Origin: Gemmatimonadota bacterium
GTDB taxonomy: Bacteria > Gemmatimonadota > Gemmatimonadetes > Gemmatimonadales > GWC2-71-9
NCBI GenBank assembly: GCA_039588295.1
Contig: JBDHAB010000048.1
Span: forward strand, 1-20,154
Length of the DNA: 20,154 nucleotides
Direction: 5' to 3'
How positions within the stretch are numbered: the first letter of the stretch is position 1; every line of letters starts with the position of its first letter. This document shows, in pieces, positions 2,177 to 19,840 of the stretch. Under the pieces are notes generated by a model. That model worked only from the letters and a program-made list of their open reading frames with translations, was not told where the DNA came from and did not search any database. Both the position numbers and the translations under genes were made by a program.

Positions 2177-2221
2177 GACCCTGCGTCCTTTCGAATGTGA
2201 TGAGATCGAAGCGTCGCTCAG

Positions 2222-5200: not shown

Positions 5201-5386
5201 GCGCAGGAACCGCTCGCTGCCCAACGACGCAGCCAAGTCGGGGCGCAACACCTTGATCGCCACCTTCCGGTCGTGCCGGAGGTCCTGCGCCAGATACACA
5301 GTGGCCATGCCGCCGCTCCCGATTTCACGCTCGAGCGTGTAGCGGTCGGCGAGGGCGGCCTTCAGGCGGTCGAAGGTGTCGGTCAC
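2222..5386 (-). CDS. Hanks-type Ser/Thr protein kinase with about 3 TM helices, a TolB-N-like domain and TPR repeats
   Basis: GSGGMATVY, VAIK, HRDIKPDN, DFG, GTPAYMSPE, DIYAVG motifs; hydrophobic helices after the kinase domain; IVLAQFENRSGD domain; TPR-like repeats (DSAFAMAYRKLG, ALNNLAVNY) and C-terminal FVNLWQNADADLQP. Start taken at GTG 5386 (ORF track start 5419). Confidence 0.93.
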   Translation of the reverse strand: MTDTFDRLKAALADRYTLEREIGSGGMATVYLAQDLRHDRKVAIKVLRPDLAASLGSERFLREIRIAAKLTHPHILPLHDSGEADGFLYYVMPYIDGESLRDKLTREGELPIHEAVRFLREVVDALALAHKQGIVHRDIKPDNVLLSEDHGLVTDFGVAKAVTEATAGKGITSFGMAVGTPAYMSPEQASGDPNIDHRADIYAVGAMAYEMLTGRPPFQDGSPQTVLAKHVTEPARPVTELREAVPPPLATVVMRCLEKRPADRWQSAAELRTQLDALTTPTGPVTPADMWVSGGTLEAQLRRSHPARVMGLYGIGTALVVLVAYSAMVLLGLPEWVVPATIVTLAAGLPLALLTGRAERRRAVARAGTDTFSDGLGRIHRWLTWKRAMTAGGIALGALTVVVAAYMAMRALGIGPVGTLVASGVLEERERIVLAQFENRSGDSTIGETVTELFRIDLTQSRSVTVLERAQVGRVLARMERDPDELLTPTLAAEVAEREGLKAIVTGEILPVGNGFVVSSRLTAAGTGEVLWAGRESANDPSGIIKAVDDLSASLRAKIGESLRTIRADAPLAEVTTSSTEALRKYAQADRANNQADFDRATALLEEAIAADSAFAMAYRKLGIILTNQQRDPERASQAFTRAFELRDRLTERERYLAEAAYHRYVADDNQASIDAYRTLLEKYPTDRIALNNLAVNYGALGRKEEAAELYLRSIALGGAPSVTFGNAIEALYGLGQRDSARAVLERFQSEYPDQPQMTRYRAGFLSAVYDYEAAETLMRGLRDTQRGSPAIEAMAGAELAAYAAVQGRVVEAWQLILELYDLQEQHGFRFIDQPRPVFETIGGAALSLRYYGNADSALRALDRLTGSAAWRGLEPADREYPGLASLYAEAGRPERARALLDQYESEVGQETRARTGELIGVHDALGSLALAEGRPTDAVEEYRSIPALVPQCVLCGMFETGRAYDAAGMADSAIAVYERYLASPVLFRSGQDNLTLWWIFRRLGALYEETGNREQAIEYYNRFVNLWQNADADLQPQVQEIRERLASLVSEQR

Positions 5387-5626
5387 GTCAGTCCAAAGTC
5401 GCAGTTGGTCGTCGAACAATACACGGGGGTCGAGACCAAAGCCACGGCCCCCGGGCGCGAGCCGAGGACACTACGCGAGGTCGGTGACGGGAGATTCACC
5501 GCCGAGCGGGCGGGGCCGTGTACGCTGCGGTCGCTGAGTCGCGAGCCGCAACCGCCGTGTGCGGGTCTCGCCAGGTCGCGGACCGGTGCGCATCTTCTCA
5601 TCGGATCGAAGCCTCGAGGAACGCTC

Positions 5627-7711
5627 ATGCTCCGTATCGCCCGCATTTTTTGCCTGCTCGTCATTGTGCTCGCGCATCTGCCTCACCTGCTCGCAGCGCA
5701 GGACTTCACGCTCGAACAGATACTCTCGGCACCGTTTCCATCGGGGCTCGTCGCCGCACCCACCGAAGATGCCGTCGCGTGGGTGCAGAGCGCCAACGGG
5801 GTTCGCAACATCTGGGTGGCGCGGTCGCCCGAGTACCAGGGCGTCCAGGTCACCGCCTATGCCGAAGATGATGGGCAGCAACTTACGAACCTCGAGTGGA
5901 CGCACGGCGGTGATGCCCTCGTGTTCGTGCGCGGGGGCGCGCCAAACAGGCAGGGGGAGATTCCCAACCCTGCGACGGAGGCGCTTGGGGTGGAGCGGGC
6001 CATCTGGATCGTGCCGGTCGCTGGCGGCGACCCGCGACAGCTTGCAGAGGGAAGTGCACCGGCGGTCTCGCCCAGCGGACGGGTTGCCGCCTTCCTCAAA
6101 GGTGGGGCTATCTGGTCGGTCACCCTCGACGACTCGGCGACGGTCGAGGAGCTCGTCAGTCCGCGTGGCTCGCCCGGTTCGCTTCGGTGGTCACCCGACG
6201 GCTCGCGTCTGGCTTTCAGAAGTGCGCGAGGCGATCACGCGTTGATCGGGGTCTACGACCTCGGCGAGAGGACGCTGGAGTACCTCGACCCGTCAGTCGA
6301 TCTCGATGGCAATCCGGTGTGGTCGCAGGACGGGCGCCGGGTCGCCTTTATCAGGATTCCGAACGACCGGCATGCCCTGCCGTTCGCACCGCGACGTGAG
6401 ATGGAGCCGTGGTCGATTCGAGTTGTCGACGTGGCGACCGGCGCTGGCCGAGAGGTCTGGAGTGCAGCGCCCGGCCGCGGCAGCGCCTTCCGCGGCGTCG
6501 TCGCCGAAAACCAGCTTCTCTGGGCGGCGGGCGATCGGATCGTGCTCCCGTGGGAGCGCGACGGGTGGGTGCACCTCTACTCCCTGCCGATTGGCGGCGG
6601 TGAGCCAACGCTGCTGACCCCCGGGGCGTTTGAAGTGGAGTACGTTGCCCTCAGTGCCAGTGGGCGGGAGGTGATCTACTCGTCCAACCAGGGCGACATC
6701 GACCGCCGGCATCTGTGGCAGGTCCCCGTGGTTGGTGGGCGGCCGGTGGTGCTCACCCCCGGGGCGGGGATCGAGTGGGCGCCGACCGTCACCGAGAGCG
6801 GCACGGTGGCCTTTCTCGCCTCGGATGCGCGCACTCCTGCCCACGCGGAGATCTTGCTGCGGGACGGAAGGCGGCCGCTCGCTCCGGGGACGATGCCTCG
6901 CGATTTCCCCTCGCAGTACCTGGTCGAGCCCGAGCCCGTCGTATTCGCGGCGGCGGATGGCATGCCGATTCACGGGCAGCTCTTTCTCCCGCGAGACGCG
7001 ACTCCCGACGATCCACGGCCCGGGGTGCTGTTCTTCCACGGTGGCTCCCGTCGCCAGATGCTCCTTGGCTTTCACTACATGGGCTACTACCACAACACGT
7101 ATGCGCTCAACCAGTACTTGGCGAGCCTAGGCTACGTCGTGCTCTCGGTGAACTACCGCAGCGGGATCGGCTACGGACTCGACTTTCGGGAAGCGATCGA
7201 CTACGGAGCCCGTGGGGCGAGCGAATACCGAGACGTTGTGGGTGCGGGGCTCTACCTTCAGAGCCGCGTCGACGTCGATCCCGAGCGAATTGGACTGTGG
7301 GGCGGTTCGTACGGCGGGTATCTCACGGCGTTGGGGCTGGCTCGAGCTTCCGACCTGTTCAAGGCTGGGGTGGATTTTCACGGCGTGCATGACTGGAACG
7401 TGGTGATCCGCAACTTCGTCCCGAGCTACGATCCGGCGGCGCGCGCCGAGGTAGCCCGACTCGCGTACGAGTCATCGCCCATGGCGTCGGTCGACCGATG
7501 GCGGTCCCCCGTGCTCGTGATCCATGCGGACGACGATCGCAACGTGCCGTTCAGCGAGACCGTGGACTTAGTGGCGGCGCTCCGTGCGCGCGGGGTCGAG
7601 GTTGAGCAGCTCGTGTTCCCGGATGACGTGCATGGATTCCTGCTGCACGCGAACTGGCTCGCGGCATACCGCGCGACGGTGGACTTCTTCGAGCGCCGAC
7701 TCAAGGAGTGA
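5627..7711 (+). CDS. Secreted S9 family (prolyl oligopeptidase / dipeptidyl peptidase-like) peptidase with TolB/WD40-like propeller
   Basis: Signal peptide from ATG 5627 (GAGGA SD at 5616-5620); WSPDG and WSQDG propeller repeats; HGG, GGSYGG nucleophile, DDRNV (Asp) and DDVH (His) catalytic triad. Confidence 0.93.
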   Translation: MLRIARIFCLLVIVLAHLPHLLAAQDFTLEQILSAPFPSGLVAAPTEDAVAWVQSANGVRNIWVARSPEYQGVQVTAYAEDDGQQLTNLEWTHGGDALVFVRGGAPNRQGEIPNPATEALGVERAIWIVPVAGGDPRQLAEGSAPAVSPSGRVAAFLKGGAIWSVTLDDSATVEELVSPRGSPGSLRWSPDGSRLAFRSARGDHALIGVYDLGERTLEYLDPSVDLDGNPVWSQDGRRVAFIRIPNDRHALPFAPRREMEPWSIRVVDVATGAGREVWSAAPGRGSAFRGVVAENQLLWAAGDRIVLPWERDGWVHLYSLPIGGGEPTLLTPGAFEVEYVALSASGREVIYSSNQGDIDRRHLWQVPVVGGRPVVLTPGAGIEWAPTVTESGTVAFLASDARTPAHAEILLRDGRRPLAPGTMPRDFPSQYLVEPEPVVFAAADGMPIHGQLFLPRDATPDDPRPGVLFFHGGSRRQMLLGFHYMGYYHNTYALNQYLASLGYVVLSVNYRSGIGYGLDFREAIDYGARGASEYRDVVGAGLYLQSRVDVDPERIGLWGGSYGGYLTALGLARASDLFKAGVDFHGVHDWNVVIRNFVPSYDPAARAEVARLAYESSPMASVDRWRSPVLVIHADDDRNVPFSETVDLVAALRARGVEVEQLVFPDDVHGFLLHANWLAAYRATVDFFERRLKE

Positions 7712-7740
7712 ACTAGCGATCCGGTTCAGCTCCGTTCGCC

Positions 7741-9552
7741 TTACGGACTCACGGGCACCAGCTCGAATGTGAACCCTTGCTGGGTCAGGATGACTTTGGT
7801 GACCCGGTCGCCGTCCATAATGAACTCGACGCTCGCTTCGATCGGGATCCCCGTGACGCGGAACGTGGTCGGCGTAACGCTCGCCAGTGCATAGGCGGGT
7901 TGTCCCGGCAGGACGCCCTGGAGCTTGCCGTCGAGGAGCTCGATGCTCAGGTCGATTGGCGGAGCGTCGGCTGTGTAGCGTCCGACGAACCGGCTCAACT
8001 CCTCCTCGCTCAGCTCCACGGCGTCGGTGGAGTCGGCCGTCTCGGGCTTCCGCTCGAAGGTGGTGAGATTCTCCACTCGGACCTCGTCCACCTCCCCATC
8101 GTGATCCAAGGAGAACGTGACCAGCGACTTGCCGAGCATCCGGTCCCGCCACGTGACGCGGAACGTCTCATAGTGCCAGTGACCCATGTCGCCGACGAAC
8201 GCCGGCCCATAGTGCAGTGCCAGGGCTCCATCCTCGAGGACGACCTCGGCCTCACCGTAGAGGGAGTCGGGGTCGAGATACACGCCCGCGTAGTCCTCGA
8301 GCGGGTGCGAGGGGTTCGTTCCCATCACCCGCTTTTCCTCGGTCTTCTGTTCCTGCTCTTTCGCCTGATCGAGGAGCGGCTTCACCATCTCGTAGAGATC
8401 CGCACTCCAGTCCTTCTCGGGCGCCTCGAGATAGGCGTCGAAGATGCGGTACATGAGCGCGGTCGGCAGCATTGAACCGTTCATATTCGTGAGAATCACG
8501 AGTCCCAGCTTCTCGCTCGGCATCATGGCAACCAGTGCGCTCATCCCGTCGATGTTCCCTCCGTGCTGCACGACCTTCTCACCGCGGTGGTCCTGCATGA
8601 ACCACCCGAGACCGTACGTGGTGAAGTTGGCTTCGGGAAAGAGCCGCTTCCATACGCCGCTCTGCGGGACGAGTGCGTGTGGCTTCTGCATCTCCTGGAC
8701 GACCGCGGACGACAGGATGCGCTGCCCACCGTACTCGCCGTCGTTGAGATGGAGGCGCACCCATTGCGCCATGTCGACGACGTTGGAGTTGATGGAACCC
8801 GCGGGAGCGACGTTGTCGATATTGCGCCACGCCACGGTTCGGACGGTATCGTCGATCTCGGCATGCGGAGTCGCCACGTTCACCTGGTCGGCGAGCGCGC
8901 GCACCGTGGTGTTGCTCGCCACCATGCCCAACGGCTGAAAGATCCGTTTGGTGACGAAGTCGTCCCAGCTCTTGCCGGAGATGCGTGCCACGATTTCCCC
9001 GGCCGTCAGGAACATCAGATTCTGGTAGCCGAACTGCGACCGGAAACTCCAGCTGGGCTCCAGGAATCTGACTCGCCGGATGATCTCCTCTCGGGAGAGA
9101 TTGGAGCCGTACCACAGCAGGTCTCCGCGGGACAGGCCACTCCGGTGGCTCAACAGGTCGCGGATGGTCATCTCCTTGGCTGCGTATGGGTCGTACATCT
9201 CAAACTCGGGAAGCCGGCTCACCACGGGGTCGTCCCAGGAGAGCTCCTTGCTGTCGACCAGAGCGCCGACCGCGGCCACCGTGAACGCCTTTGACGATGA
9301 CCCGATCGCGAACAAGGTCCGTTCGCTCACGGACTCATTGGTACCGATCGTCCGGACACCGTAGCCCTTGGCGTACACAAGGGTGTCATTCCTCACGATG
9401 GAGACGGCAAGGCCTGGTACCTTCCAGGTCACCATCGCCTCGGTGACATACTGGTCAAAACCGCGGAACGGCGCCTGCGCGTCCACGGGGGACGCGAGGA
9501 GCGCGCTCGAGGTCACAAGTATCGAGAAGGCCGTGGTGACGTACCGCTGCAT
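7741..9552 (-). CDS. Secreted beta-lactamase-fold serine hydrolase (AmpC/S12-like) with two C-terminal DUF3471-like domains
   Basis: IGSSSKAF (SxxK), LLSHRSGL, YQN (YxN), HGGNIDG motifs; signal peptide from ATG 9552 with GGAG SD; YAGVY and FVGRY repeats in the C-terminal region. Confidence 0.92.
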   Translation of the reverse strand: MQRYVTTAFSILVTSSALLASPVDAQAPFRGFDQYVTEAMVTWKVPGLAVSIVRNDTLVYAKGYGVRTIGTNESVSERTLFAIGSSSKAFTVAAVGALVDSKELSWDDPVVSRLPEFEMYDPYAAKEMTIRDLLSHRSGLSRGDLLWYGSNLSREEIIRRVRFLEPSWSFRSQFGYQNLMFLTAGEIVARISGKSWDDFVTKRIFQPLGMVASNTTVRALADQVNVATPHAEIDDTVRTVAWRNIDNVAPAGSINSNVVDMAQWVRLHLNDGEYGGQRILSSAVVQEMQKPHALVPQSGVWKRLFPEANFTTYGLGWFMQDHRGEKVVQHGGNIDGMSALVAMMPSEKLGLVILTNMNGSMLPTALMYRIFDAYLEAPEKDWSADLYEMVKPLLDQAKEQEQKTEEKRVMGTNPSHPLEDYAGVYLDPDSLYGEAEVVLEDGALALHYGPAFVGDMGHWHYETFRVTWRDRMLGKSLVTFSLDHDGEVDEVRVENLTTFERKPETADSTDAVELSEEELSRFVGRYTADAPPIDLSIELLDGKLQGVLPGQPAYALASVTPTTFRVTGIPIEASVEFIMDGDRVTKVILTQQGFTFELVPVSP

Positions 9553-9766
9553 GGTGGGCACTCCAGAGAACGTGGTTGGGAGAAGGTGTTGTCCGATGTA
9601 CCCCCCCGCAAGTGGCAGCTGCAACCCCCCTCGGCGGCGTTGCCGACGTTGTGCCGAGGATGCATTGTCACGACGCCACGCTACATTCCAAGGCGATCGA
9701 CCAGTGGTTCTTGAGAGGGTTCACCTTTGTGCGCGAGAACGCGGCGTCACTCGGAGAACGGCCGAC

Positions 9767-11065
9767 ATGAAACGTTTGACTTCGGAACCGATGGGCACGC
9801 GTCCCTTCGTCTTTGTCGCATGCGTCGCCGCGATACTTACGGCACCGTCGGCCTTCGCGCAGACGCCGTGCTGTGAGTTGATCGGACGGCCGCAGGCCGA
9901 GCAGTACCACGTTACCGCGATCGCCGAGCGCCGCTTCACGCACGGCGAGCTGTGGGATGCGCTTGAACCCTATGTGACTGGTGCGGGTGTGCGAGTGGAG
10001 ACCATCGGCTGGTCCGTGCAAGGTCGGGCGATCCGAGCCGTGAAGTTCGGCTCGGGCCCCACGCGCGTCCTGCTCTGGTCGCAAATGCATGGCGACGAGT
10101 CGACGGCAACGATGGCGCTGGCCGATGTCATTCGCTTCTTCGCAGAGGGGGGCGCGGATCCGCTCCGCGTACGCATTCGTGATCGCCTCACGGTCACGAT
10201 GGTCCCGATGTTGAACCCGGACGGTGCCGAGCGTTTCCAGCGGCACAACGCCGTGGGGGTGGATGTGAACCGCGATGCCCGCCGGGTAGCCACGCCGGAG
10301 GCGCGGGCGCTCAAGGCGTTGCGCGACAGTCTGGAGCCGGACTTCGGGTTCAACCTGCACGACCAGGGCGCACGAAACGCAGCCGGTTCGGACGGTCGCC
10401 AGGTTGCCGTCGCGCTCCTGGCGCCGGCGGCGGACTCGTCACGTGCCTACGGTCCGGTGCGCGCCCGTGCGCGGCAGCTGGCGGCCCTGCTGGCGACCGC
10501 GTTGCAGGAGGTCATACCGCATCGGGTGGCCAAGTACGACGACGAGTTCAACCCCCGTGCGTTCGGAGATCTCATCCAGCAGTGGGGCACCAGCACCGTC
10601 CTCATTGAGAGCGGGGCGCTCCCGGAGGATCCGGAAAAACAGGGACTCCGCCGTCTCAATGTCGCCCTGCTCTTGACCGCCTTCGAGGCGATCGCCACCG
10701 AGCGGTACCGGGATGCCGATTCCGCCGCCTATGAGGACCTGCCGTCCAATCACCGGATCGCCAGCGACGTCCTCCTGCGGGGTGGCTGGGTCGTGTTACC
10801 GGAGGGTGCTGCGCTGCGTCTGGATGTCGCCCTGGTATTCGAGGACCCGGTCGCCCGTCGACGACTGCTCATCGATGAGGTCGGGGATCTCGACGACGCG
10901 CAGGCTATTGACACGGTCGATGTGAGCGGGCTCTATCTCCACCTCGCCAGCCCTTCTACGCTCGATCACCGCGATTGGTGGCTCATTCGTGGCGAGCCGG
11001 TGGGGATCGTGGTGCGACGAGGGAGCGAAGAGGAGTCCGAGGTCGTGCGGCGGGTACCGGAGTGA
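9767..11065 (+). CDS. Secreted M14 zinc carboxypeptidase family protein
   Basis: IGWSVQGR, MHGDE (HxxE), NPDG, DVNRD, FNLHDQ and LIESG motifs; signal peptide ending in AFAQ; GGAGA SD upstream of ATG 9767. Confidence 0.9.
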   Translation: MKRLTSEPMGTRPFVFVACVAAILTAPSAFAQTPCCELIGRPQAEQYHVTAIAERRFTHGELWDALEPYVTGAGVRVETIGWSVQGRAIRAVKFGSGPTRVLLWSQMHGDESTATMALADVIRFFAEGGADPLRVRIRDRLTVTMVPMLNPDGAERFQRHNAVGVDVNRDARRVATPEARALKALRDSLEPDFGFNLHDQGARNAAGSDGRQVAVALLAPAADSSRAYGPVRARARQLAALLATALQEVIPHRVAKYDDEFNPRAFGDLIQQWGTSTVLIESGALPEDPEKQGLRRLNVALLLTAFEAIATERYRDADSAAYEDLPSNHRIASDVLLRGGWVVLPEGAALRLDVALVFEDPVARRRLLIDEVGDLDDAQAIDTVDVSGLYLHLASPSTLDHRDWWLIRGEPVGIVVRRGSEEESEVVRRVPE

Positions 11066-11129
11066 GAACCCCGGCCCCACGACCGCCCCAGCTGTGCTGA
11101 TACCCCGAGCGCCGTCCTCCGCGACCTCG

Positions 11130-11639
11130 CTACATCGGCTGTTCGTCGGCGGTGGGTCCGTACATCGCGGGGACCGGCGTGCCCAGGAGCCGGAGGTACA
11201 CGGAAAGCTGGCCCCGGTGGTGGATCACGTGGTTCATCACCATCGAGCGCAGCACGGCCACCTTGGGCATCGTGAACACGGTTTCGCCGCCAGCCAAGAG
11301 CGACCAGTCGCGCATCCAATCGGCGTCAGAGGTCTTGGTGATCGCCTCGTGCGCCTCGGCGACGTGCTTGTCGAGAGTGGCGAGGAGCTCGGTGTTGGTG
11401 CCGCAGACCGTGGGTTGGAACGGTGGGCCGTCTTTCGGGGCGATGTCCAGCTCGTCCTGCATGCAGGTCATCACGGTCCATTGCGGCATCTCGGCCAGGT
11501 GTGAGGCGAGGCGGCCGAGGGTCATGGATTTCTCGTGCGGCTGCCAGTCGTGTTTCGCTTCCGGCACGCGCTCCAGCATCCGGCGCGTGCTGGCCATCTC
11601 TTGGTCGAACTCGGGGAGCAAGGACTCGGTGATGGTCAT
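11130..11639 (-). CDS. DinB/YfiT family protein
   Basis: WQPHEKSMTLGRLASHLAE, NHVIHHRGQLSVYLR and VPAMYGPTADE motifs with a His triad; GGAG SD before ATG 11639. Confidence 0.92.
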   Translation of the reverse strand: MTITESLLPEFDQEMASTRRMLERVPEAKHDWQPHEKSMTLGRLASHLAEMPQWTVMTCMQDELDIAPKDGPPFQPTVCGTNTELLATLDKHVAEAHEAITKTSDADWMRDWSLLAGGETVFTMPKVAVLRSMVMNHVIHHRGQLSVYLRLLGTPVPAMYGPTADEQPM

Positions 11640-11811
11640 GGTCGGTCTCCGTAATCTGATCATGCAACACTAGCAGGGTGGGGCGCCCAGGGGGAAGCGT
11701 CCACCGCCCTTGTGTCTCGCGCAATGGCGCTGCGCCTGTCATCTTGTTCGTATGCGCGACCGCCTCGAGCGATACAACCTGAGGGCCTCCGACTCGACTC
11801 GCCACGTCCAC

Positions 11812-12999
11812 ATGAACAGCCGCGAACGCGTTCGTATCGCTATGGCATTGAATGAACCGGACCGCGTGCCGGTGTTCTGCCAGCTCGCCCTCGGCCACTA
11901 CTTCCTGAACGCCACCGCTTCTCCGGTCGATATCTGGTACCGGTCCGAGGCGTTCGCTGACGCGTTAGTCGAGCTGCAACAGCGGTACTGCTTCGACGGC
12001 ATCCTGGTCAATCTGCCGGGTCGGGATCCGGAGTTCGAGCGACACGTCGACCGTGTCGAAGAGGGTGCGCGCGAAACCACGGTCCGATGGAAGAACGGCT
12101 GCTTCACGCGAGTGCCGCGCGACGACAACCCGCATTACCTGCAGCCCGACGGCACGCAGTTCCATCCTGCTTTCGGGGATGTGGAGCCCGAGAAGCTCTG
12201 GTACGTGGAGCCCTGGGACCTTACCGGGATTACCTACCCCTCGACGTGGGATTTCGAGGATGAGCCCCGGTCCGTCGACGACTTCTTCCCCCCGCACCAC
12301 TTCGATACCATCGCCGCGGTCCGGGAGAAGACGGGAGGGGAGATCTCGGTACACTCGGAGATCTTCAGCCCGCTCTCCCAGGTCCTCGAGCTGCTGGGGT
12401 ACGAGCAGGCGCTGGTCGCGCTCGTGGAAGATGCGCCCAAGGTTCATGCGTGTTTGGAGCGTCTCACCGACGGAGCGATCGACCTCGCGAGCCGCCAAGC
12501 GGCGGCGGGGGCCGACGCGGTGCTCATCTCCTCGGCGTTCGCGGGTGGTGGATTCATCTCGCCCGCGCATTACCGGGAGTTCGTGCTACCCTACGAGCGC
12601 CGTGTGATCGCGGAGGTCCGCGCCCGGCATCCCCAGGTCACGATGTACACGCACACCTGCGGGGCCATCGGCGATCGACTCGATCTGATGCTCGAGACCG
12701 GAACGCAAGGGATCGATACGCTCGATCCGCCGCCACTTGGCACGGTCGAACTCGAGGACGCCGTGGCCGTGCTCGAGGGCAAAGCGTTCATCAAGGGGAA
12801 CATCGATCCCGTGAACACACTCCTGCACGGTGATGAAGCGAAGGTTCGGGAGGCCGTGCTGCACCGGTTGCGCGTTGCCAAGCCGGGTGGCGGCTTCATC
12901 CTGAGCTCGGCGTGCTCGGTGGCTCCAGCGGCCAAACCGGAGGTACTGGAGTTGATGACCGAGATCGCGATGGAGTACGGCGTGTACGGCACCACATAG
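11812..12999 (+). CDS. Uroporphyrinogen decarboxylase superfamily protein, MtbA/MtaA/CmuA (MT2)-like corrinoid methyltransferase
   Basis: MNSRERV...PDRVPV N-terminus; FISPAHYREFVLPY; HTCG (HxC); KGNIDP; GGGFILSSAC (third Zn ligand). Start may be 11752 or 11812. Confidence 0.85.
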   Translation: MNSRERVRIAMALNEPDRVPVFCQLALGHYFLNATASPVDIWYRSEAFADALVELQQRYCFDGILVNLPGRDPEFERHVDRVEEGARETTVRWKNGCFTRVPRDDNPHYLQPDGTQFHPAFGDVEPEKLWYVEPWDLTGITYPSTWDFEDEPRSVDDFFPPHHFDTIAAVREKTGGEISVHSEIFSPLSQVLELLGYEQALVALVEDAPKVHACLERLTDGAIDLASRQAAAGADAVLISSAFAGGGFISPAHYREFVLPYERRVIAEVRARHPQVTMYTHTCGAIGDRLDLMLETGTQGIDTLDPPPLGTVELEDAVAVLEGKAFIKGNIDPVNTLLHGDEAKVREAVLHRLRVAKPGGGFILSSACSVAPAAKPEVLELMTEIAMEYGVYGTT

Positions 13000-13014: not shown

Positions 13015-14790
13015 CTACCGTACCATCTGCTCCCACCCGATGCGCCGGATGAGCAGGACGACGCCTACGGCGCAGAGCGCGGCTCCAGCCAGTGCCAGCA
13101 TCCCTCGCAGGTACGCTCCAAAGAGCATCAGGCCGATGGCGGGGAGGGTGCAGTAGACGATCCCCGCCGCAAGCACGGCCGCCAGGAGTGACAGTCCAAG
13201 GTGGCGGTCCGGTTGGGTTTCCGGCACTGACGCCGCGATGGGTCTCCAGCCCGGCCCCCCGGGGCGCACCTTCCGGTAGAAGCTCCTGAGCGTCTCCTCA
13301 CGTTCGGGTCGGGTGAGGTAGGTCGCCACCAGCCACGCTGCGATCGTGAACGCGGCCACTACGGCGAGCCGATACTCGTTGGCCTCGACGAAACGACTTA
13401 CGACGAGGAACCCGGCCAGCGACGCCACCATCGCCACGATCTCGGACCAGGCGTTGATGCGCCACCAGAACCATCGCAACATGAATACCGCGCCGGTTCC
13501 GGCACCGAGGGCGGCCAAGAACTTCCATGCTTCGTCCACCGAGGTGCCGCGCATCAGCCAGGCCGCAACACTCCCCACGGCCAACACCAGAATCGACGCC
13601 GCTCGCGAGACCCGCGTGAGGTGTTTGTCGCTGGCGTCGGGCCGCACGAAGCGCTTGTAGAAGTCGCTCACCAGGTAGGACGCGCCCCAGTTCATCTGCG
13701 TGGAGATGGTGGACATGAACGCCGCAAAGAACGCGACCAGCATGAGGCCGCGGAGGCCGGCGGGTGCCAAGTCGCGGATGACGCTCGGGAACCCGACGCC
13801 CGGGTCGTCCATGGTGCGAAGGTCCGGGTACATAGCGAGTGCGGCAAACGCCACGAGCAGCCACGGCCAAGGTCGGACGCAGTAGTGCGCGATCTGGAAC
13901 CACAGCGTCGCCAGCACCGAGTGTCGCTCGTCCTTGGCGGACGCCATCCGCTGGACCACATACCCCCCGCCTCCTGGCTCCGCTCCCGGATACCACGAGG
14001 CCCACCATTGGACGAACAGCATGACGAAGAAGATCCCCAGCGGCATCCACGGATCGGTTGCGGTGAAATTTGGCAAGTAGCGGAAGGCGTCTTCGCCCTG
14101 CGGAAAGGCGGTCACCACCTCGGCTCGCATCGCTTCCATTCCGCCCAGGTGATTCACCGCGATCGCCGCGAGCGCGATCGAGCCCGCCATTGCCAAGATG
14201 AACTGGACGAAGTCGGTTACCGCAACACCCCAGAGTCCGGCCAGCGTCGCATAGATCCCGACCACGCCGAGCAAGACCACGATGAGAATCCACTCACTGC
14301 CGCCTGCCCCTGCCTCTTGCCCGGCGAAGACCGTCTGCTGCAGGACGGTGACCATTGCGCCCGTGACCCACCCGATGATGATCGCGTTTACCAGGAGCGC
14401 GATGTAGATGGCGCGAAAGCCGCGGAGGAACGCCGCTGCCTTCCCGCCGTAACGGAGCTCGACGAGTTCGACATCCGTCATCACCTCCGCGCGGCGCCAC
14501 AGCCTGGCGTAGACGAATACCGTGATCATTCCGCCCAACGCGAACGCCCACCAGAACCAGTTGCCCGCAAGTCCATGACGCGCGACCAGCCCCGTGACGG
14601 CAAGCGGTGTGTCGGCGGCGAACGTCGTGGCCACCATGGACGTCCCCGCGATCCACCACGGGAGTGAGCGTCCCGAAAGGAAGTATTCGGTGAGGTTTTT
14701 GCCTGCGCGCTTGCGGAAACCCAAGCCAATCGCGAACGCGAGGGCCAAGTACGCGACGATGACGAGCCAGTCGAGACCGGTGAGTTCCAC
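13015..14790 (-). CDS. Sodium:solute symporter (SSS) family transporter
   Basis: EYFLSGRSLPWW, SMVATTFAADTP, QRMASAKDE and AAFMSTISTQMN motifs; more than 13 hydrophobic segments; GTG start. Confidence 0.93.
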   Translation of the reverse strand: MELTGLDWLVIVAYLALAFAIGLGFRKRAGKNLTEYFLSGRSLPWWIAGTSMVATTFAADTPLAVTGLVARHGLAGNWFWWAFALGGMITVFVYARLWRRAEVMTDVELVELRYGGKAAAFLRGFRAIYIALLVNAIIIGWVTGAMVTVLQQTVFAGQEAGAGGSEWILIVVLLGVVGIYATLAGLWGVAVTDFVQFILAMAGSIALAAIAVNHLGGMEAMRAEVVTAFPQGEDAFRYLPNFTATDPWMPLGIFFVMLFVQWWASWYPGAEPGGGGYVVQRMASAKDERHSVLATLWFQIAHYCVRPWPWLLVAFAALAMYPDLRTMDDPGVGFPSVIRDLAPAGLRGLMLVAFFAAFMSTISTQMNWGASYLVSDFYKRFVRPDASDKHLTRVSRAASILVLAVGSVAAWLMRGTSVDEAWKFLAALGAGTGAVFMLRWFWWRINAWSEIVAMVASLAGFLVVSRFVEANEYRLAVVAAFTIAAWLVATYLTRPEREETLRSFYRKVRPGGPGWRPIAASVPETQPDRHLGLSLLAAVLAAGIVYCTLPAIGLMLFGAYLRGMLALAGAALCAVGVVLLIRRIGWEQMVR

Positions 14791-14874
14791 GATTCGATTC
14801 GCGCTTTCTCGAAGTTGGTGACGTGTGGTGGACGTAGACCAGATGGTCCGAGAGCGACGGGGGCCCGCTACATC

Positions 14875-15765
14875 CTACTGACGCAACCCGTCCACCATTT
14901 CCCGCAACGCCCGGATATGCTGCGGTGTCGTTCCGCAGCATCCTCCGATGACCGACACACCGATCGCGAGGAGGGCCCGGGCTTGATCGGCCATGAATTC
15001 GGGTGTCTCGTCGTACACCGTCTTGCCCCCCTTGCTTCGTGGGAGCCCCGCGTTGGGCTGAATACAGAGCGGGAGCTGGCTGTGACGGCGAAACTCTTCG
15101 GCGATCTCGACCATGTGCTCGCTGCCGTTGCCGCAGTTCGAGCCGACGGCGTCCGCACCGACCTCCTCGAGTCCCATTGCCGCTGCTTCCACACTGACTC
15201 CCATGATCGTGTAGAATCCCCGCGGTGTCGGGTCGAACGTCATCGTGGCCACGACCGGTGTCTCCACGGAGACGTCCTTGGCCGCCAGCACCGCGAGTCT
15301 TGCCTCCTCGAGATCGGTCATGGTCTCCACGAACACACAATCCACGTCCGCGGCAACGAGACACTCCATCTGGTGCCGGTAGCTGGCATACAGCTCGTCG
15401 AGTCCAGTTTCGCCGTAGGGCTTGAGGAGCGCGCCACTGGGACCACAGGACCCGACAACATACGCGCGACCCGCAACCACGCCGCGAGCGGCGAGCACGG
15501 CCTCGCGGTTGAGCGCTTCCGCTTCGGCAGCCAAGCCGGAAAGCGCGAGCTTCAGCGGAGACGCGCCGAACGTGTTGGTCTCGATGATCTCGGCCCCGGC
15601 GTCGAGATAGAGCTGAGCGATCTCCTCGAGCACCTCGGGACGTGACAGCGTGACCGATTCCGGAGGCTCACCCGGTTTGAGTCCCCGCTCGAACAGCATC
15701 GTTCCCATGGCGCCGTCGGCGACGATGGGATCGCCGGATACCAGCCGCTCGGCAAACGGTCTCAC
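14875..15765 (-). CDS. Homocysteine S-methyltransferase domain protein (stand-alone MetH N-terminal, Hcy-binding module)
   Basis: DGAMGT, AGAEIIETNTFGA, FVETM, GSNC, PNAGLP and GGCCGTTP (three Zn-binding Cys). GTG start at 15765, 1 nt after the upstream TGA. Confidence 0.93.
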   Translation of the reverse strand: MRPFAERLVSGDPIVADGAMGTMLFERGLKPGEPPESVTLSRPEVLEEIAQLYLDAGAEIIETNTFGASPLKLALSGLAAEAEALNREAVLAARGVVAGRAYVVGSCGPSGALLKPYGETGLDELYASYRHQMECLVAADVDCVFVETMTDLEEARLAVLAAKDVSVETPVVATMTFDPTPRGFYTIMGVSVEAAAMGLEEVGADAVGSNCGNGSEHMVEIAEEFRRHSQLPLCIQPNAGLPRSKGGKTVYDETPEFMADQARALLAIGVSVIGGCCGTTPQHIRALREMVDGLRQ

Positions 15766-15766
15766 C

Positions 15767-16405
15767 TCAACGTGGCGCCGCGAGTTGCTTGACCACGACA
15801 ACTGCGTTTGCCGCGTCGAACCCATAGGCATCCGCGCCGATCTCCTTGGCGAACTCTTCGGTGACGGGCGCTCCGCCGACGATGGTCCGGATCTGCCCGT
15901 CGAGGTTCTCCCGCCGCACCAGCTCGCAGACCTCACTCATCGCCGGCATCGTCGTCGTGAGCAGCGCGGACATGCCGATGACGGAAGCGCCCTCCTCTTT
16001 GGCTGACTGCACCATCTTGTCCGGGTGCACGTCGTGTCCTAGATCGACGACATCGAACCCAGCGCCCTTGAGCATGATGCCGACCAGGTTCTTGCCGATA
16101 TCGTGCAGATCGCCGCGTACCGATCCGATCACCACCTTGCCGAGAGAGGGAATGCCCTCCGAAATGAGCAGCGGCCGGAGCTCGTCCATGCCGGCGTACA
16201 TTGCCTTGGCCGCCATGAGCACGTCGGGAAGGAAGATTTCGTGCACGCGAAACCGCTCACCCACGACATCCATCCCGGCGATCAGCCCGTCATCCAGGAT
16301 CGACTTGGGAGAGACCTCCTGCTGAATCACCTGCCGCGTGAGCTCTCCGACCCGTGCGTGGTCTCCACGGATGACGGCGTTCGCAATCTCAGCTAGCAAC
16401 TTCAC
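15767..16405 (-). CDS. Corrinoid (cobalamin-binding) protein, cap plus B12-binding domain, MttC/MtgC-like
   Basis: GLIAGMDVVGERF...FLPDV cap domain; GDLHDIGKNLV (DxHxxG); SALLTTT; VGGAPV; GGAG SD 7 nt before the GTG start. Confidence 0.95.
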   Translation of the reverse strand: MKLLAEIANAVIRGDHARVGELTRQVIQQEVSPKSILDDGLIAGMDVVGERFRVHEIFLPDVLMAAKAMYAGMDELRPLLISEGIPSLGKVVIGSVRGDLHDIGKNLVGIMLKGAGFDVVDLGHDVHPDKMVQSAKEEGASVIGMSALLTTTMPAMSEVCELVRRENLDGQIRTIVGGAPVTEEFAKEIGADAYGFDAANAVVVVKQLAAPR

Positions 16406-16435
16406 ATCGATTCTCCCGCGCGGGTCAAGGGACCG

Positions 16436-17143
16436 TCACCGGATAAACAACTGGCGGATTCGCTCGCGGCAGCTCCTGGTCTCACACCGGCTACAGAACT
16501 CGTAGGTCGGCGGAAACCGGTGAATCTCTCTCGGACCGGCAATCATCACGCCCGAAACCGATTTGAGAGGTTGCATGAGGCAGCTATCGGTCAGCGTTAC
16601 CCCGATCTGCTCCGGCTCGAGATACTGGAACAACCGTCGTTGGCCCGTGACGTGCCACCCACAGTACCCGGGACTGTATCGCAGCGCCGCCCCATCGGGC
16701 GTGTCCCACCCACGCTCCGTGAGGAGATCTTCGTACCGACGCTCGGCCAGATCAGCCGTACCGTCCGCGGCTGCCGACGCCATCGCATCCAACATCGACG
16801 CCAGCGCAAAGTCGTTCAGGTTAAAGCCTCTGGCGATCGCTTGACTCGTTTGCTCGCCGAGCGTGACGACAAAGAGCGCCAATCGGTCTGCCCGTGGAAA
16901 GATGTCACCGACAGGCGCATTCGGCTCGTTCCGACCCTCGCCGCGATAGACGTCCCCGAACTCGGACCTGGGAATGTCCACGATCACGCCAGCCGGCGCG
17001 ACGGTTTCCGCGAAAATCGCCGCCGCCGCGGCATAGAGGTCCTCGATGCGGTCCTGAATCTCCGCCCCCGGTGGGATGCCCAGGTTCTCGAACACGTGGG
17101 CGCGGTCGGGCGCGACCTCCTCTGGTACGAAGGTCAGGATCAC
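16436..17143 (-). CDS. Stand-alone methionine synthase (MetH) SAM-dependent reactivation domain protein
   Basis: LFVVTLG, RYSPGY, IGVTLTDSCLMQPLKSVSG motifs of the Met_synt_B12 activation domain; GTGA start/stop overlap with the upstream gene. Confidence 0.88.
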   Translation of the reverse strand: MILTFVPEEVAPDRAHVFENLGIPPGAEIQDRIEDLYAAAAAIFAETVAPAGVIVDIPRSEFGDVYRGEGRNEPNAPVGDIFPRADRLALFVVTLGEQTSQAIARGFNLNDFALASMLDAMASAAADGTADLAERRYEDLLTERGWDTPDGAALRYSPGYCGWHVTGQRRLFQYLEPEQIGVTLTDSCLMQPLKSVSGVMIAGPREIHRFPPTYEFCSRCETRSCRERIRQLFIR

Positions 17144-18606
17144 GCGCGCATGCTCCGGTAGGGGAGCGCGTCCATGCCGTAGCGCTTCGCTTCCGAGGCC
17201 ATGCGGCGCGTCAGCTCCGTCTTGACGTCGTCGGACAAGGACGACGGAGTGTACTGTGTGAGGAGCCTCTCCACTTCGTTGTGCGCCCGCTGCCCGAGCG
17301 TGCGGCCTCCTTCGTCCTGCCAGCGTGACCGGTTCGCACGATCGATCGTCACTCCTGGAAAGCGAAGCTCGTCCCGCAGATACTTCCGCGTGTGATCGGA
17401 GATCAGGAGATGCTGTTCTTGCAGCAGCTCCTCGAAGCGCGGGATGGCCGGGAAGTCTTCGCGTGGCTCGACACCGGCGACGAGCCGGAGGGCCATCCCG
17501 CAGATCTCGTTGTCCAAGACCAGCTTCTCGAGACTCTGACAGCTCTCGAAGTCGAGCATGCCCGGACCGGAGATGCTGTTGATGCCAGCCAGCGCGGCGA
17601 GCGTCGCGCCCATGGACGTTTCGAGGCCAGCCTGCGCGTCGAGCAACTTGGCGTCACTCAATGCCATGTACGCCTGCGTCGGCATTCCCAGATGCTTGCC
17701 GATCTCGCTGTAGGCACATTCCACCATCATGGTTTCCACCGCGCCCATCGGCGTGGTTTCGTAGCGAATGTCGAACACGGCGGGTGAGCCACCGTAGAGA
17801 GCCGGCGTCCCGGGACTGGTGAGCTGGCTGATGACGATGCCGCTCAACGTCTCGGCCGTGTGCTGCACCAGCGTCCCGACGATGGTGACCGGAGCCACGA
17901 ACCCCGTGAGCGGCATCGAGACGTACTCCACGGGAATCGCGTGTTCCGCGCAGTCGATCAGATTCTGCGAGGTGACGTCACTCCATTTCAGCGGGGCGGT
18001 GGGGCAGCAGGAGAAGATCGTGAGTGGCTTTGCCTTCAGTTCTTCCACCGATCCCCGAACCGCCAGTTGGAGATCCCGCATGACGGCAAACGCGTCGGCG
18101 GTGAACGCGCCCGTCACGACCGGCTTCTCGCACAGCATCAGGCTCAAGTACAGCCGGTAGCTGTCCGAGACGTTCTGGTGGACGTCACTGGGCACGAGTG
18201 CCGTGCTCTGGAACGCGAGGTGGTCGAGCTGCGCGATGACTTTGGCATACCTGACGTAGTCGTCGGTCGTCGGGGGACGCTCAACTTGCGTGTCGTGGTC
18301 GAGTACGTTGATTGCGGCGGACCCTGGCGTGAAGTGGATGTTGGGATCGGACAGGTCGCCGGCGCCGTCGCCGAGCGCGTCGTACAGTTGAAATCCGGGC
18401 GGCACGGTGCGCAGTGCCTGGTCGATGATGTCGTCGGTAAGGAATACCCGGTGCGAGTCGGCTCGTACCTCTGCACCGTGATCCGCGAGCAGCGAGACAA
18501 CCGCGGGATTGTTGATCTCCACGCCTAGCGAGCGCAGCAGCGACCGTGCTTCCCCGATGATTTGCTCCACGAGCTGATCGCCCAGGAACCGGACACCGGG
18601 TCTCAT
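17140..18606 (-). CDS. MttB-family trimethylamine/quaternary amine:corrinoid methyltransferase, non-pyrrolysine
   Basis: APVTIVGTLVQHTAETLSG, PGTPALYG, GAVE, SDAKLLDAQAGLET, GPGML and SLEKLVLDNE motifs; continuous 488-aa ORF with no in-frame amber codon. Confidence 0.93.
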   Translation of the reverse strand: MRPGVRFLGDQLVEQIIGEARSLLRSLGVEINNPAVVSLLADHGAEVRADSHRVFLTDDIIDQALRTVPPGFQLYDALGDGAGDLSDPNIHFTPGSAAINVLDHDTQVERPPTTDDYVRYAKVIAQLDHLAFQSTALVPSDVHQNVSDSYRLYLSLMLCEKPVVTGAFTADAFAVMRDLQLAVRGSVEELKAKPLTIFSCCPTAPLKWSDVTSQNLIDCAEHAIPVEYVSMPLTGFVAPVTIVGTLVQHTAETLSGIVISQLTSPGTPALYGGSPAVFDIRYETTPMGAVETMMVECAYSEIGKHLGMPTQAYMALSDAKLLDAQAGLETSMGATLAALAGINSISGPGMLDFESCQSLEKLVLDNEICGMALRLVAGVEPREDFPAIPRFEELLQEQHLLISDHTRKYLRDELRFPGVTIDRANRSRWQDEGGRTLGQRAHNEVERLLTQYTPSSLSDDVKTELTRRMASEAKRYGMDALPYRSMRA

Positions 18607-18632
18607 TGCATCGTGCCCACGTGATTCGGCAC
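18603..18632 (-). CDS. Putative 9-aa leader peptide (MPNHVGTMQ) translationally coupled to the MttB gene
   Basis: AAGGAGG SD (18640-18646) lies 7 nt before GTG 18632; the TGA stop overlaps the MttB ATG (ATGA). Confidence 0.4.
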   Translation of the reverse strand: MPNHVGTMQ

Positions 18633-18675
18633 CGGCACCCCTCCTTCGCCTTCACGACCCGTAGATGACTCGCGA

Positions 18676-18704
18676 ATTGTACCGTCGAGGGTTCGGCCAC
18701 TCAA
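18676..18704 (-). promoter_or_regulatory. Sigma70-type promoter of the methyltransferase operon
   Basis: TTGAGT-N17-TACAAT on the minus strand, about 70 nt upstream of the MttB start codon. Confidence 0.65.
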
Positions 18705-19036: not shown

Positions 19037-19840
19037 ATGAGACGCATGACCAGCTTTACCCTGGTGGCCGCGCTGGCGGCCCTTGCCGCCTGCAGTGACG
19101 GGGGGCCGGGATCCACCGTTGCGATCCGGTTCGCCACGGCTCCGACCGGAGCCGCTCCGGCCCCGTTCGCCACCCCCGGCGCCGACATGTCGGCTGCCGC
19201 GGCGCAGGACATCGCTCTTGAAGGATCCAACGGCCGTCTCACGATCACCGACATCCGGGTGATCGTCGAGGAACTCGAGCTGGAGCCGGTCGAGACCGGT
19301 GACTGCGACGACGACGTGGTGGAAGTGGAATGCCCCGACTTCGAGCAGCGATGGTTCTTCGTACAGGTGCCGGTGGATGGCACCGATCTGCAAGTGGCCG
19401 TCACGCAGGCCGACGGCAGGTTCGACGAGGTCGAGTTCGAGGTGGGTGATGCGGAAGTCGACGACGACGACGCCGATGACCTGCTGGACGCCCAGCTGAT
19501 CGAGGACCTGTTCAACAACGACATCCTGCCGGAATTCCCCAACTGGCCGGAGAAGGCCAGCATGGTCATTGTCGGGACATTCGAGCCGAAGAACCCGGAC
19601 GGCTCCTTCGGCGCGGCGCAGTCCTTTGAGACGTATTTCGAGGCAGAGATCGAGGTCGAGTTCGACCTGATTCCGCCGTTCGACACGGCGACCGATACCG
19701 ACATCACGATCGTACTTCATCCGGACATGTGGTTCGGTCTGCCGGACGGGACGGTCATGGACCTTGCCGCGTTGCAAGGACAGCTGCTCGAGTTCGAGCT
19801 CGAGTTCGAGGACGGACTGGAGATAGAGATCGACGACTGA
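19037..19840 (+). CDS. Highly acidic lipoprotein of unknown function
   Basis: Lipobox LAAC after a basic then hydrophobic signal; GAGG SD; beta-strand-like pattern; about 60 D/E versus about 9 K/R by manual count. Confidence 0.85.
   Translation: MRRMTSFTLVAALAALAACSDGGPGSTVAIRFATAPTGAAPAPFATPGADMSAAAAQDIALEGSNGRLTITDIRVIVEELELEPVETGDCDDDVVEVECPDFEQRWFFVQVPVDGTDLQVAVTQADGRFDEVEFEVGDAEVDDDDADDLLDAQLIEDLFNNDILPEFPNWPEKASMVIVGTFEPKNPDGSFGAAQSFETYFEAEIEVEFDLIPPFDTATDTDITIVLHPDMWFGLPDGTVMDLAALQGQLLEFELEFEDGLEIEIDD

What the first reader, a model, noticed from the sequence alone, without database searches (positions are those of the whole stretch)
13015..18704. Split methionine synthase with the folate module swapped for an MttB methyltransferase: candidate folate-independent methylamine-to-methionine pathway
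Seen: one tight minus-strand unit (promoter, MttB, GTGA overlap, reactivation domain, 30-nt gap, corrinoid protein, 1-nt gap, Hcy S-methyltransferase, 84-nt gap, SSS transporter). Known: MetH consists of Hcy-binding, pterin (methyl-THF)-binding, cap/B12 and reactivation modules. Characterised MttB-family systems (MttBC, MtgBCA, MtcB, MtpB) pass the methyl group to CoM or THF for energy metabolism. Here three MetH modules are separate genes, the pterin module is missing and MttB stands in its place. Inference: an imported N-methyl compound is demethylated by MttB and the methyl goes via the corrinoid directly to homocysteine, a B12-dependent analogue of betaine-homocysteine methyltransferase. 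Split MetH and MttB systems are each known; I cannot confirm from the sequence alone that this combination is undescribed.
Basis: partly seen in the sequence, partly recalled or inferred. Interest (0 to 1): 0.85.

Follow-up and report, generated by a model that had tools for sequence, protein, structure and literature searches.

The report
MttB-fed B12 methionine synthase cassette
Four tightly packed genes most likely use vitamin B12 to move a methyl group from an unidentified imported compound onto homocysteine, making methionine without folate; the gene set is real and widespread, was proposed in a 2022 paper, and still awaits an experimental test.

Summary
The five genes, their families and their spacings are as described. 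The conserved unit is four genes (MttB-like, activation protein, corrinoid protein, homocysteine methyltransferase): 45 of 55 related loci with room keep this order; SSS follows in 2 of 45. The cluster and the folate-free hypothesis are in print (Williams et al. 2022, PMC9324843); their Electryonea contig is my locus L072 (MttB 65% identical). This scan also reported it on other genomes. My literature searches found no experimental test.

Added here:
- The host keeps a full MetH and has no free pterin methyltransferase.
- 46 of 50 cassette genomes show no free pterin methyltransferase; 8 of 50 (MAGs) also show no MetH, MetE-type enzyme or MetF.
- The MttB has Leu at the pyrrolysine site and 0 of 4 glycine-betaine-binding residues.
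- In 8 Gemmatimonadota relatives a distinct basic-amino-acid/polyamine antiporter adjoins the cassette, hinting at a methylated basic amino acid donor.
- The activation protein has four invariant cysteines.

Verdict: new member of a described but untested kind; direct donor-to-corrinoid-to-homocysteine transfer about 70% likely.

The parts
18676..18704 (-). Sigma-70-like promoter candidate (TTGAGT-17-TACAAT), 69 nt upstream of mttB; plausible position, not above chance
   Evidence: 2 found vs 1.0 +/- 1.2 in shuffles
17140..18606 (-). Non-pyrrolysine MttB-superfamily methyltransferase (488 aa), presumed donor:corrinoid methyltransferase (MT1); Leu316 at the Pyl position; S96/Q311/S346/E354 in place of MtgB Y97/R312/H348/F356
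   Evidence: PF06253; alignment to 9YCE/2QNE/7XCL; model matches 2QNE/7XCL at TM 0.86-0.88; conservation
16436..17143 (-). Stand-alone MetH-type (SAM-dependent) B12 activation protein (235 aa) with invariant Cys161 and C-terminal CxxCxxxxC (217/220/225)
   Evidence: PF02965; model pLDDT 95, best fold match T. maritima TM0269 1J6R and MetH activation domains; four Cys in 65 of 65 homologues
15767..16405 (-). Corrinoid protein (212 aa), cap + B12-binding domain with DxHxxG (D99, H101, G104)
   Evidence: PF02607+PF02310; best NCBIfam scores MtgC/MtbC-type, below cut-offs; motif in 63 of 63 homologues
14875..15765 (-). Homocysteine S-methyltransferase domain protein (296 aa, GTG start), three Zn-ligand Cys (211, 276, 277) plus E147, T148, N238, Y251
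   Evidence: PF02574; best solved relative T. maritima MetH 1Q7M, E 1.3e-52; conservation
13015..14790 (-). Sodium:solute symporter (591 aa); linked to the cassette only in the host's genus; substrate unknown
   Evidence: PF00474; linkage
11815..12999 (+). Convergent URO-D/MtaA-CmuA-like protein (394 aa) with HxC...C motif; accessory, found at this place in host and 2 congeners; role uncertain
   Evidence: PF01208; MtaA/CmuA models below cut-off; aligned to 4AY7; distribution

Best explanation
The four-gene core is a self-contained, cobalamin-dependent methyl-salvage methionine synthase. (1) An imported methylated compound binds the MttB-like TIM barrel, which methylates cob(I)alamin on the corrinoid protein. 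(2) The zinc-thiolate Hcy domain moves the methyl to homocysteine (supplied by SahH), giving methionine. (3) When the cofactor oxidises to Co(II), the activation protein repairs it by SAM-dependent reductive methylation. Folate is bypassed. In this host it is an accessory route beside a full folate-dependent MetH; in some lineages it may be the only Hcy-remethylating route. The donor is unknown. It is unlikely to be glycine betaine or a similar short betaine; a cationic N-methylated compound, possibly a methylated basic amino acid, is my leading guess. SHOWN: gene content, order, families, folds, motifs, co-occurrence. INFERRED: all chemistry, co-transcription, direction, donor, transporter role.
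For: Conserved M-A-C-H order in 45 of 55 loci with >=2.6 kb downstream, from records of many phyla. Host (96% complete): PF00809 only in FolP and MetH; one MttB; no RamA-type activase; no PF01717. 50 cassette genomes: 84 PF00809 matches = 46 FolP (TIGR01496), 34 in MetH-length frames, 4 others in 4 genomes. The two of those four that I inspected sit in separate canonical clusters with other MttB paralogues, a corrinoid protein and RamA or MetF, which shows the search finds MT2s where they exist. 8 of 50 genomes show no MetH, PF01717, MetF or free pterin protein, and their only intact PF02574 gene is the cassette's; 7 of these 8, and 49 of 50 overall, have SahH. Zn ligands and Hcy-site residues aligned to T. 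maritima MetH are conserved. A transporter adjoins the cassette in 13 of 16 Gemmatimonadota genomes examined (host included): SSS in 6, a distinct AdiC-like antiporter clade in 8, one with both. Williams et al. 2022 reached the same hypothesis from genomes alone.
Against: No activity, genetic or expression data exist here or in the papers found. No SAM/SAH riboswitch was found in the window or 8 related loci. 34 of 50 genomes already carry MetH and 10 carry PF01717, so need is not shown. The absences rest on MAGs whose completeness was not given; two of the 8 (G039, G048) also lack FolP and are probably incomplete. 10 of 55 loci with room lack the strict order, and 4 of these have none of the partners within the locus. 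Most non-Gemmatimonadota loci have no neighbouring transporter. The residue aligned to T. maritima D105 is Ser in 43 of 49 homologues (its role in Hcy binding is recalled, and Thermus MetH has Ala there). [quoted passage not shown]
Confidence: 0.7

Rival explanations
1. The relay is MttB -> corrinoid -> PF02574 protein, but the acceptor is another thiol or selenol (detoxification, or making a different methyl-thioether). In the host the convergent MtaA-like URO-D protein could be an alternative acceptor or donor module.
For: PF02574 proteins include enzymes other than MetH modules (NCBIfam hits to YitJ-, BHMT- and MmuM-type models, all below cut-off). D105-equivalent is Ser. No methionine riboswitch. 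The URO-D gene is the host's only PF01208 gene and keeps the HxC...C motif of MtaA.
Against: Closest solved relatives are MetH Hcy modules; E147/T148/N238/Y251 and the N-terminal DGxxGT motif are conserved; a MetH-type activation protein travels with it; SahH is present in 49 of 50 genomes. URO-D is beside the cassette in only the host and 2 of 100 relatives.
Confidence: 0.1
2. Catabolic MtgBCD-like system: MttB and the corrinoid protein demethylate the substrate, and a pterin-binding module supplied in trans (free MT2, or the folate domain of MetH) carries the methyl to THF. The Hcy protein is a side branch.
For: This is how characterised MttB systems work (PMC13080624; PMC12478193). 34 of 50 genomes have a MetH folate domain.
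Against: No free pterin MT2 in the host or in 46 of 50 genomes; 16 of 50 show no MetH; no C1-oxidation genes among the cassette-adjacent ORFs scanned; the Hcy gene, not a pterin gene, is the conserved neighbour.
Confidence: 0.08
3. The MttB-clade barrel has become a methyl-folate (or other internal C1 carrier) binding module, so the cassette is an isoenzyme of MetH and uses no imported methylamine.
For: The pocket has lost the betaine-binding residues; most loci lack a transporter; MttB and the MetH folate domain are both TIM barrels (PMC9842639 passage; weak fold hit).
Against: 11 of 50 cassette genomes show no MetF, including the 8 with no other methionine synthase; two unrelated transporters attach to the cassette in Gemmatimonadota; the fold is plain MttB (TM 0.86-0.88).
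Confidence: 0.06
4. The Hcy protein is a stand-alone BHMT/MmuM-like enzyme that takes methyl directly from a sulfonium or betaine, uncoupled from the corrinoid.
For: P. inhibens Bmt was reported to form methionine from DMSP or betaine without THF or cobalamin (PMC12366255, abstract only).
Against: It does not explain the tight, cross-phylum linkage with MttB, corrinoid and activation genes; the sequence is much closer to MetH modules (182 bits) than to BHMT (73) or MmuM (59).
Confidence: 0.04

Closest known systems
[quoted passage not shown] Electryoneota and other MAGs (Williams et al. 2022, Environ Microbiol, PMC9324843; passages and supplement 1 read)
   Same: Same four genes in the same order; orthologous (their Electryonea contig Ga0374944_199913 is locus L072: MttB 65%, Act 44%, Cor 63%, Hcy 54% identical); same hypothesis (corrinoid-dependent methionine synthesis from an unknown donor); full MetH also present.
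   Different: Here an SSS transporter and a convergent URO-D-like gene are attached. The paper's passages and Table S4 mention no transporter, pocket residues, activation-protein cysteines or genomes lacking folate routes, and report no experiment.
MtgBCDE of Ruegeria pomeroyi / split MetH of Phaeobacter inhibens (Mausz et al. 2025, PMC12478193, parts 1-4 of 6 read; Price et al. 2018, PMC5764234, passages)
   Same: A free corrinoid protein shared between an MttB-family demethylase and a free PF02574 Hcy module.
   Different: There the pterin-binding MtgD is essential, reactivation is by RamA/DUF1638 (no PF02965), the genes are scattered and the donor is glycine betaine. Here there is no pterin protein or RamA, a PF02965 activation protein is present, the genes form one operon-like block and the betaine residues are absent.
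MtgB of Desulfitobacterium hafniense and other non-Pyl MttB enzymes (MtcB, MtpB, MtyB, MthB) (Picking et al. 2026, PMC13080624, parts 1-3 of 6 read)
   Same: Same superfamily and fold (about 27% identity, TM 0.86); no pyrrolysine.
   Different: Y97, R312, H348 and F356 align to S96, Q311, S346 and E354. R312, which the paper says is conserved in MtcB/MtpB/MthB/MtyB, is Gln in 80 of 80 homologues. Those systems pass the methyl to THF and use RamA.
Cobalamin-dependent methionine synthase MetH (Thermotoga-type with separate activation protein TM0269)
   Same: Hcy module, cap/B12 module and activation-domain fold all have counterparts.
   Different: No methyl-THF module; the corrinoid protein scores higher with MtgC/MtbC models than with MetH; the activation protein carries extra conserved cysteines.
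Folate-independent core methionine synthases MesA/B/C/D (Price et al. 2021, PMC7857596, passages)
   Same: Homocysteine methylated without methyl-folate, for MesA-C probably from a corrinoid protein.
   Different: Those are MetE-type catalytic domains fed by CoFeSP or MtrA; here the acceptor is a MetH-type PF02574 domain with a dedicated MttB and corrinoid protein.

Membership tests
Williams et al. 2022 MttB-methionine synthase gene cluster | Non-Pyl MttB/MtgB homologue, Hcy S-methyltransferase, corrinoid protein and activation protein in one cluster | tested here: met
   definition
Williams et al. 2022 MttB-methionine synthase gene cluster | Orthology to the published members | tested here: met
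   L072 is the Electryonea contig listed in Table S4; 65/44/63/54% identity in the same order
Williams et al. 2022 MttB-methionine synthase gene cluster | Makes methionine from a non-folate donor (hypothesis of the paper) | not testable with these tools
   needs biochemistry; only co-occurrence support
MttB superfamily (PF06253) | Profile match above cut-off and MttB TIM-barrel fold | tested here: met
   246 bits vs cut-off 25; TM 0.86-0.88 to 2QNE, 7XCL, 9YCE
Pyrrolysine trimethylamine methyltransferase MttB | In-frame UAG / pyrrolysine in the active site | tested here: not met
   Pyl position aligns to Leu316, codon TTG at 17661-17659; TIGR02369 340 bits vs cut-off 525
MtgB glycine betaine methyltransferase | Y97, F356 (cation-pi) and R312, H348 (carboxylate) | tested here: not met
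   0 of 4: S96, E354, Q311, S346 by sequence alignment to 9YCE; residues defined; conservation
Characterised quaternary-amine MttBs (MtcB, MtpB, MtyB, MthB) | Conserved Arg equivalent to MtgB R312 | tested here: not met
   Gln in the window protein and 80 of 80 homologues; statement of Arg conservation from PMC13080624; those four sequences were not aligned here
MetH (complete or split) | Hcy-binding Zn module with three Cys ligands | tested here: met
   C211, C276, C277 align to T. maritima C207, C272, C273 (ligand role recalled); invariant
MetH (complete or split) | Cap + B12-binding module with DxHxxG | tested here: met
MetH (complete or split) | SAM-binding activation domain | tested here: met
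   PF02965 47 bits vs cut-off 25; fold match 1J6R E 8.4e-12; SAM binding itself not tested
MetH (complete or split) | Pterin (methyl-THF)-binding module in the system | tested here: not met
   none in window or 80 loci by tblastn with the host MetH pterin domain; no free one in host
MtgBCDE (roseobacter type) | Free pterin-binding MtgD and RamA-type activase | tested here: not met
   host has neither
BHMT / Bmt-type direct methyltransferase | Direct, B12-independent transfer from betaine or sulfonium to Hcy | not testable with these tools
   sequence is closer to MetH modules than BHMT; betaine-binding residues of BHMT were not mapped

The most novel reading that the evidence does not exclude
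The cassette salvages methyl groups from N-methylated basic amino acids released by protein breakdown (for example N-epsilon-methylated lysines, or methylated arginine or histidine). It imports them by an AdiC-like antiporter or SSS, demethylates them with a new MttB specificity class (invariant D352-F353-E354, Q311, Y313) and passes the methyl straight to homocysteine. The activation protein carries its own four-cysteine metal centre as the electron source. In peptide-fermenting lineages such as Cloacimonadota and Zixibacteria it would be the only route from homocysteine to methionine.
Probability: 0.2. Interest if true: 0.75.

Novelty: new member of a known kind. Interest (0 to 1): 0.42.

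Why it matters
If it works as proposed, it is a B12-dependent, folate-free methionine synthase with a dedicated methyl-donor enzyme, spread over many uncultured anaerobic and sediment phyla. It would give a function to a large, highly conserved MttB clade now liable to be annotated as trimethylamine methyltransferase, and would point to an unrecognised sink for a methylated compound. The gene set and idea are already published, so the value of this locus is as another member plus clues (pocket residues, linked transporters, genomes lacking folate routes) that narrow the donor screen. All four proteins are small and predicted soluble, so the question can be tested directly.

Tried and rejected
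- Five-gene unit as the conserved system: rejected (SSS next to Hcy in 2 of 45 loci with room, plus one truncated locus).
- Glycine betaine or Pyl-dependent trimethylamine as donor: rejected on residues.
- The Rfam PYLIS_3 match at 17562-17661: it begins at the codon aligned to pyrrolysine, which is TTG here, so I read it as coding-sequence similarity, not recoding.
- Riboswitch search of the window and 8 of the 80 loci: none.
- Promoter and terminator scan: at chance level.
- Complex prediction MttB + Hcy protein: no answer, score 0.00 in two runs; no evidence either way.
- URO-D gene as a core member: rejected (3 of 100 relatives have it, 2 beside the cassette).
- Neighbour clustering and Pfam scan of 48 cassette-adjacent ORFs: no other recurrent partner beyond the antiporter and SSS, apart from small lineage-bound sets such as a CBS protein and a ferredoxin-domain protein.
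- Literature: searches found no experimental test of the cluster and no paper linking MttB to methyl-lysine demethylation (0 papers; 2 listings on pyrrolysine and recoding, not read). GapMind 2026 and the mlp-cluster preprint have no 'MttB' occurrence (passages only; preprint supplements not seen). The library lacks most subscription papers.
- Earlier-findings word search for the antiporter/methyl-lysine idea returned nothing.
Full report
OBSERVATION. The five ORFs are present on the minus strand with the families named: MttB 17140-18606 (PF06253), activation protein 16436-17143 (PF02965), corrinoid protein 15767-16405 (PF02607 + PF02310), Hcy S-methyltransferase 14875-15765 (PF02574) and SSS 13015-14790 (PF00474). 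Gaps are -4, 30, 1 and 84 nt. The promoter-like site is 69 nt before the start but is at chance level. A URO-D/MtaA-like gene (11815-12999, +) converges on the SSS gene. Co-transcription is inferred from spacing only.

HOST CONTEXT. The genome is 96% complete and, from the titles of its closest related loci, belongs to Gemmatimonadota. It encodes a full-length MetH (C3:66150-69866) next to a YitJ-like Hcy+MetF fusion. Its only PF00809 matches are that MetH and FolP. It has one MttB, SahH, no RamA-type activase, no PF01717 and no CobS, but has a cobalamin riboswitch, which suggests B12 uptake (inference). The cassette is not a recent break-up of the host MetH: Hcy domain 41% to the YitJ-like protein and 34-41% over parts of MetH, corrinoid 32%, activation protein no hit at 1e-5.

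CONSERVATION. Of 55 loci with at least 2.6 kb downstream, 45 have MttB-activation-corrinoid-Hcy in order; 10 do not, 4 of them with no partner in the locus. The other 25 are too short to judge, and 6 of those still show all four. SSS follows Hcy in 2 of 45 four-gene loci with room, plus one truncated locus. Among 60 relatives the SSS link occurs only in the host's genus (G051-G054, G058); other genera carry 50-56% identical SSS genes with no cassette gene in the regions fetched (7 regions). So the conserved unit is four genes.

IS A PTERIN MODULE NEEDED? I searched 50 of the 80 locus genomes (48 with all four genes, 2 lacking the activation gene). PF00809 gave 84 matches in 47 genomes: 46 coincide with TIGR01496 FolP, 34 lie in MetH-length frames and 4 are other, in 4 genomes. 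Two of those four were inspected: each lies in a separate cluster with other MttB paralogues, a corrinoid protein and RamA or MetF; the other two (G013, G038) were not inspected. PF01717 was found in 10 of 50, MetF in 39 of 50, SahH in 49 of 50. Eight genomes (G028, G036, G039, G041, G044, G045, G047, G048: four titled Cloacimonadota, two Zixibacteria, one Melioribacteraceae, one unclassified) show no MetH, PF01717, MetF or free pterin protein, and their only intact PF02574 gene is the cassette's. These are MAGs of unstated completeness, two also lack FolP, and kin are not independent, so this supports but does not prove folate independence.

THE PROTEINS. MttB: the model matches MtgB (2QNE, 9YCE) and M. 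barkeri MttB (7XCL) at TM 0.86-0.88. The pyrrolysine position is Leu316. MtgB binds glycine betaine through Y97, F356, R312 and H348, and R312 is reported conserved in MtcB, MtpB, MthB and MtyB (PMC13080624). By sequence alignment to 9YCE (chain numbering offset by 2) these align to S96, E354, Q311 and S346. Q311, Y313, D352, F353 and E354 are invariant in 80 of 80 homologues; S96 in 79, S346 in 73. The pocket has lost the carboxylate-binding base and gained acids, which fits a cationic donor with no nearby carboxylate (inference; the 349-353 loop has low pLDDT). Hcy protein: closest solved relative is the T. maritima MetH Hcy module (E 1.3e-52); C211, C276, C277, E147, T148 and N238 are invariant (their roles are recalled from MetH literature). 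Corrinoid protein: DxHxxG in 63 of 63. Activation protein: MetH activation fold, best match TM0269, with C161, C217, C220 and C225 in 65 of 65 homologues, suggesting a metal site (inference, untested).

TRANSPORTER CLUE. In Gemmatimonadota an AdiC-like basic amino acid/polyamine antiporter (best NCBIfam scores TIGR00905 and PRK10644, below cut-off) directly adjoins the cassette in 8 genomes: upstream in G054, G055, G056 and downstream in G002, G092, G096, G104, G106. In family f3, 4 of 20 genomes have the MttB and the same 4 have the antiporter. In a 20-row tree the 8 linked copies lie on one side of a 96/99 branch from 9 unlinked copies, including the host's own (three distant long-branch rows were left out of the groups). 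Counting the host, 13 of 16 Gemmatimonadota cassette genomes examined here have SSS (6) or the antiporter (8), one having both; G066, G116 and G125 have neither by these queries. Two unrelated transporters at two positions argue for an imported donor. The antiporter family points weakly to a methylated basic amino acid or polyamine. Linked genes travel together, so this is a hint only, and most loci from other phyla show no transporter.

URO-D NEIGHBOUR. It is the host's only PF01208 gene, keeps the MtaA-type HxC...C motif and is found in 3 of 100 relatives: beside the cassette in G051 and G054, and unlinked beside an SSS fragment in G116. The URO-D superfamily includes corrinoid O-, S- and halogen-demethylases (PMC10418091 passage). 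It may be a second module using the same corrinoid protein, or it may have arrived with the SSS. It is not core.

MECHANISM. Best reading (0.7): donor-CH3 -> MttB -> methyl-corrinoid -> Zn-activated homocysteine -> methionine, with SAM-dependent repair of Co(II) by the activation protein. Rivals: another thiol or selenol acceptor (0.1); THF-directed catabolism with a pterin module in trans (0.08); MttB using methyl-folate (0.06); stand-alone BHMT-like activity (0.04). A complex prediction gave no answer and is not counted.

PRIOR WORK. Williams et al. 2022 (PMC9324843; passages and supplement 1 read) describe this four-gene cluster in Ca. Electryoneota and 'diverse bacteria'. [quoted passage not shown] Their Electryonea contig is my L072. 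The nearest tested system, MtgBCDE of roseobacters, needs the pterin protein MtgD and uses RamA (PMC12478193; PMC5764234; bioRxiv 2025.12.19.695462 passages). Searches found no experimental test; the library omits most subscription journals, and bioRxiv supplements were closed. Earlier notes of this scan show look-alike stretches in 17 genomes, and the 8 displayed reach the same conclusion; they are unchecked AI notes and add no independent support. The unpublished genome G071 enters only the denominators.

VERDICT. Real, conserved, and a new member of a cluster already described and interpreted in print but untested. Interest 0.42: not a new idea, but an open and directly testable one, with the donor narrowed by the residue and transporter clues.

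Noticed in passing
window 11815-12999 (+): URO-D/MtaA-CmuA-like gene converging on the SSS gene; the host's only PF01208 gene; deleted in several congeners; in G116 it lies beside an SSS fragment and a SAM methyltransferase, away from the cassette.
   Followed up: partly
L010:11751-13172, L069:6611-7921, L099:3379-4698, L111:9254-10612, L112, L114, L123, L124: A distinct AdiC-like basic amino acid/polyamine antiporter clade adjoins the cassette up- or downstream in 8 Gemmatimonadota genomes.
   Followed up: yes
window 16436-17143 (-): Four invariant cysteines (YCGW plus CxxCxxxxC) in the activation protein; possible Fe-S or Zn site.
   Followed up: partly
L060:5608-6918 and L079:6516-7862: Two loci lacking the activation gene have a 4Fe-4S dicluster protein directly upstream of MttB; possible alternative reactivation partner.
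   Followed up: no
window 17562-17661 (-): Rfam PYLIS_3 match above gathering score although the codon at the pyrrolysine position is TTG; also seen in L034.
   Followed up: yes
G000:C3:63408-69866: Full MetH followed by a YitJ-like Hcy+MetF fusion that keeps its three cysteines; the role of this extra Hcy domain is unclear.
   Followed up: no
G000:C24:34017-37190: Cobalamin riboswitch two genes downstream of sahH, ahead of ORFs that look like a B12 ABC/TonB uptake set (by eye, not scanned).
   Followed up: partly
L121 (G021:C223) and L120 (G010:C5): Canonical MttB clusters in Gemmatimonadota MAGs: one with pterin MT2, MetF and a PylD-like gene, one with two MttBs, pterin MT2, corrinoid protein and RamA. 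A further MttB with an in-frame TAG is at G010:C4.
   Followed up: partly
L015 / L114 Hcy gene: Frameshift near residue 182 in the Hcy gene of G005 = G106; assembly error or pseudogene not resolved.
   Followed up: no
window 595-11663 and 19037-19840: Ordinary neighbours: cytidylate-kinase-like/BON protein, LTXXQ/heavy-metal-resistance protein, Ser/Thr kinase with TPRs, S9 peptidase, serine hydrolase of the beta-lactamase family with DUF3471, M14 peptidase, DinB protein; the acidic 267-aa ORF at 19037-19840 has no Pfam or NCBIfam match.
   Followed up: no
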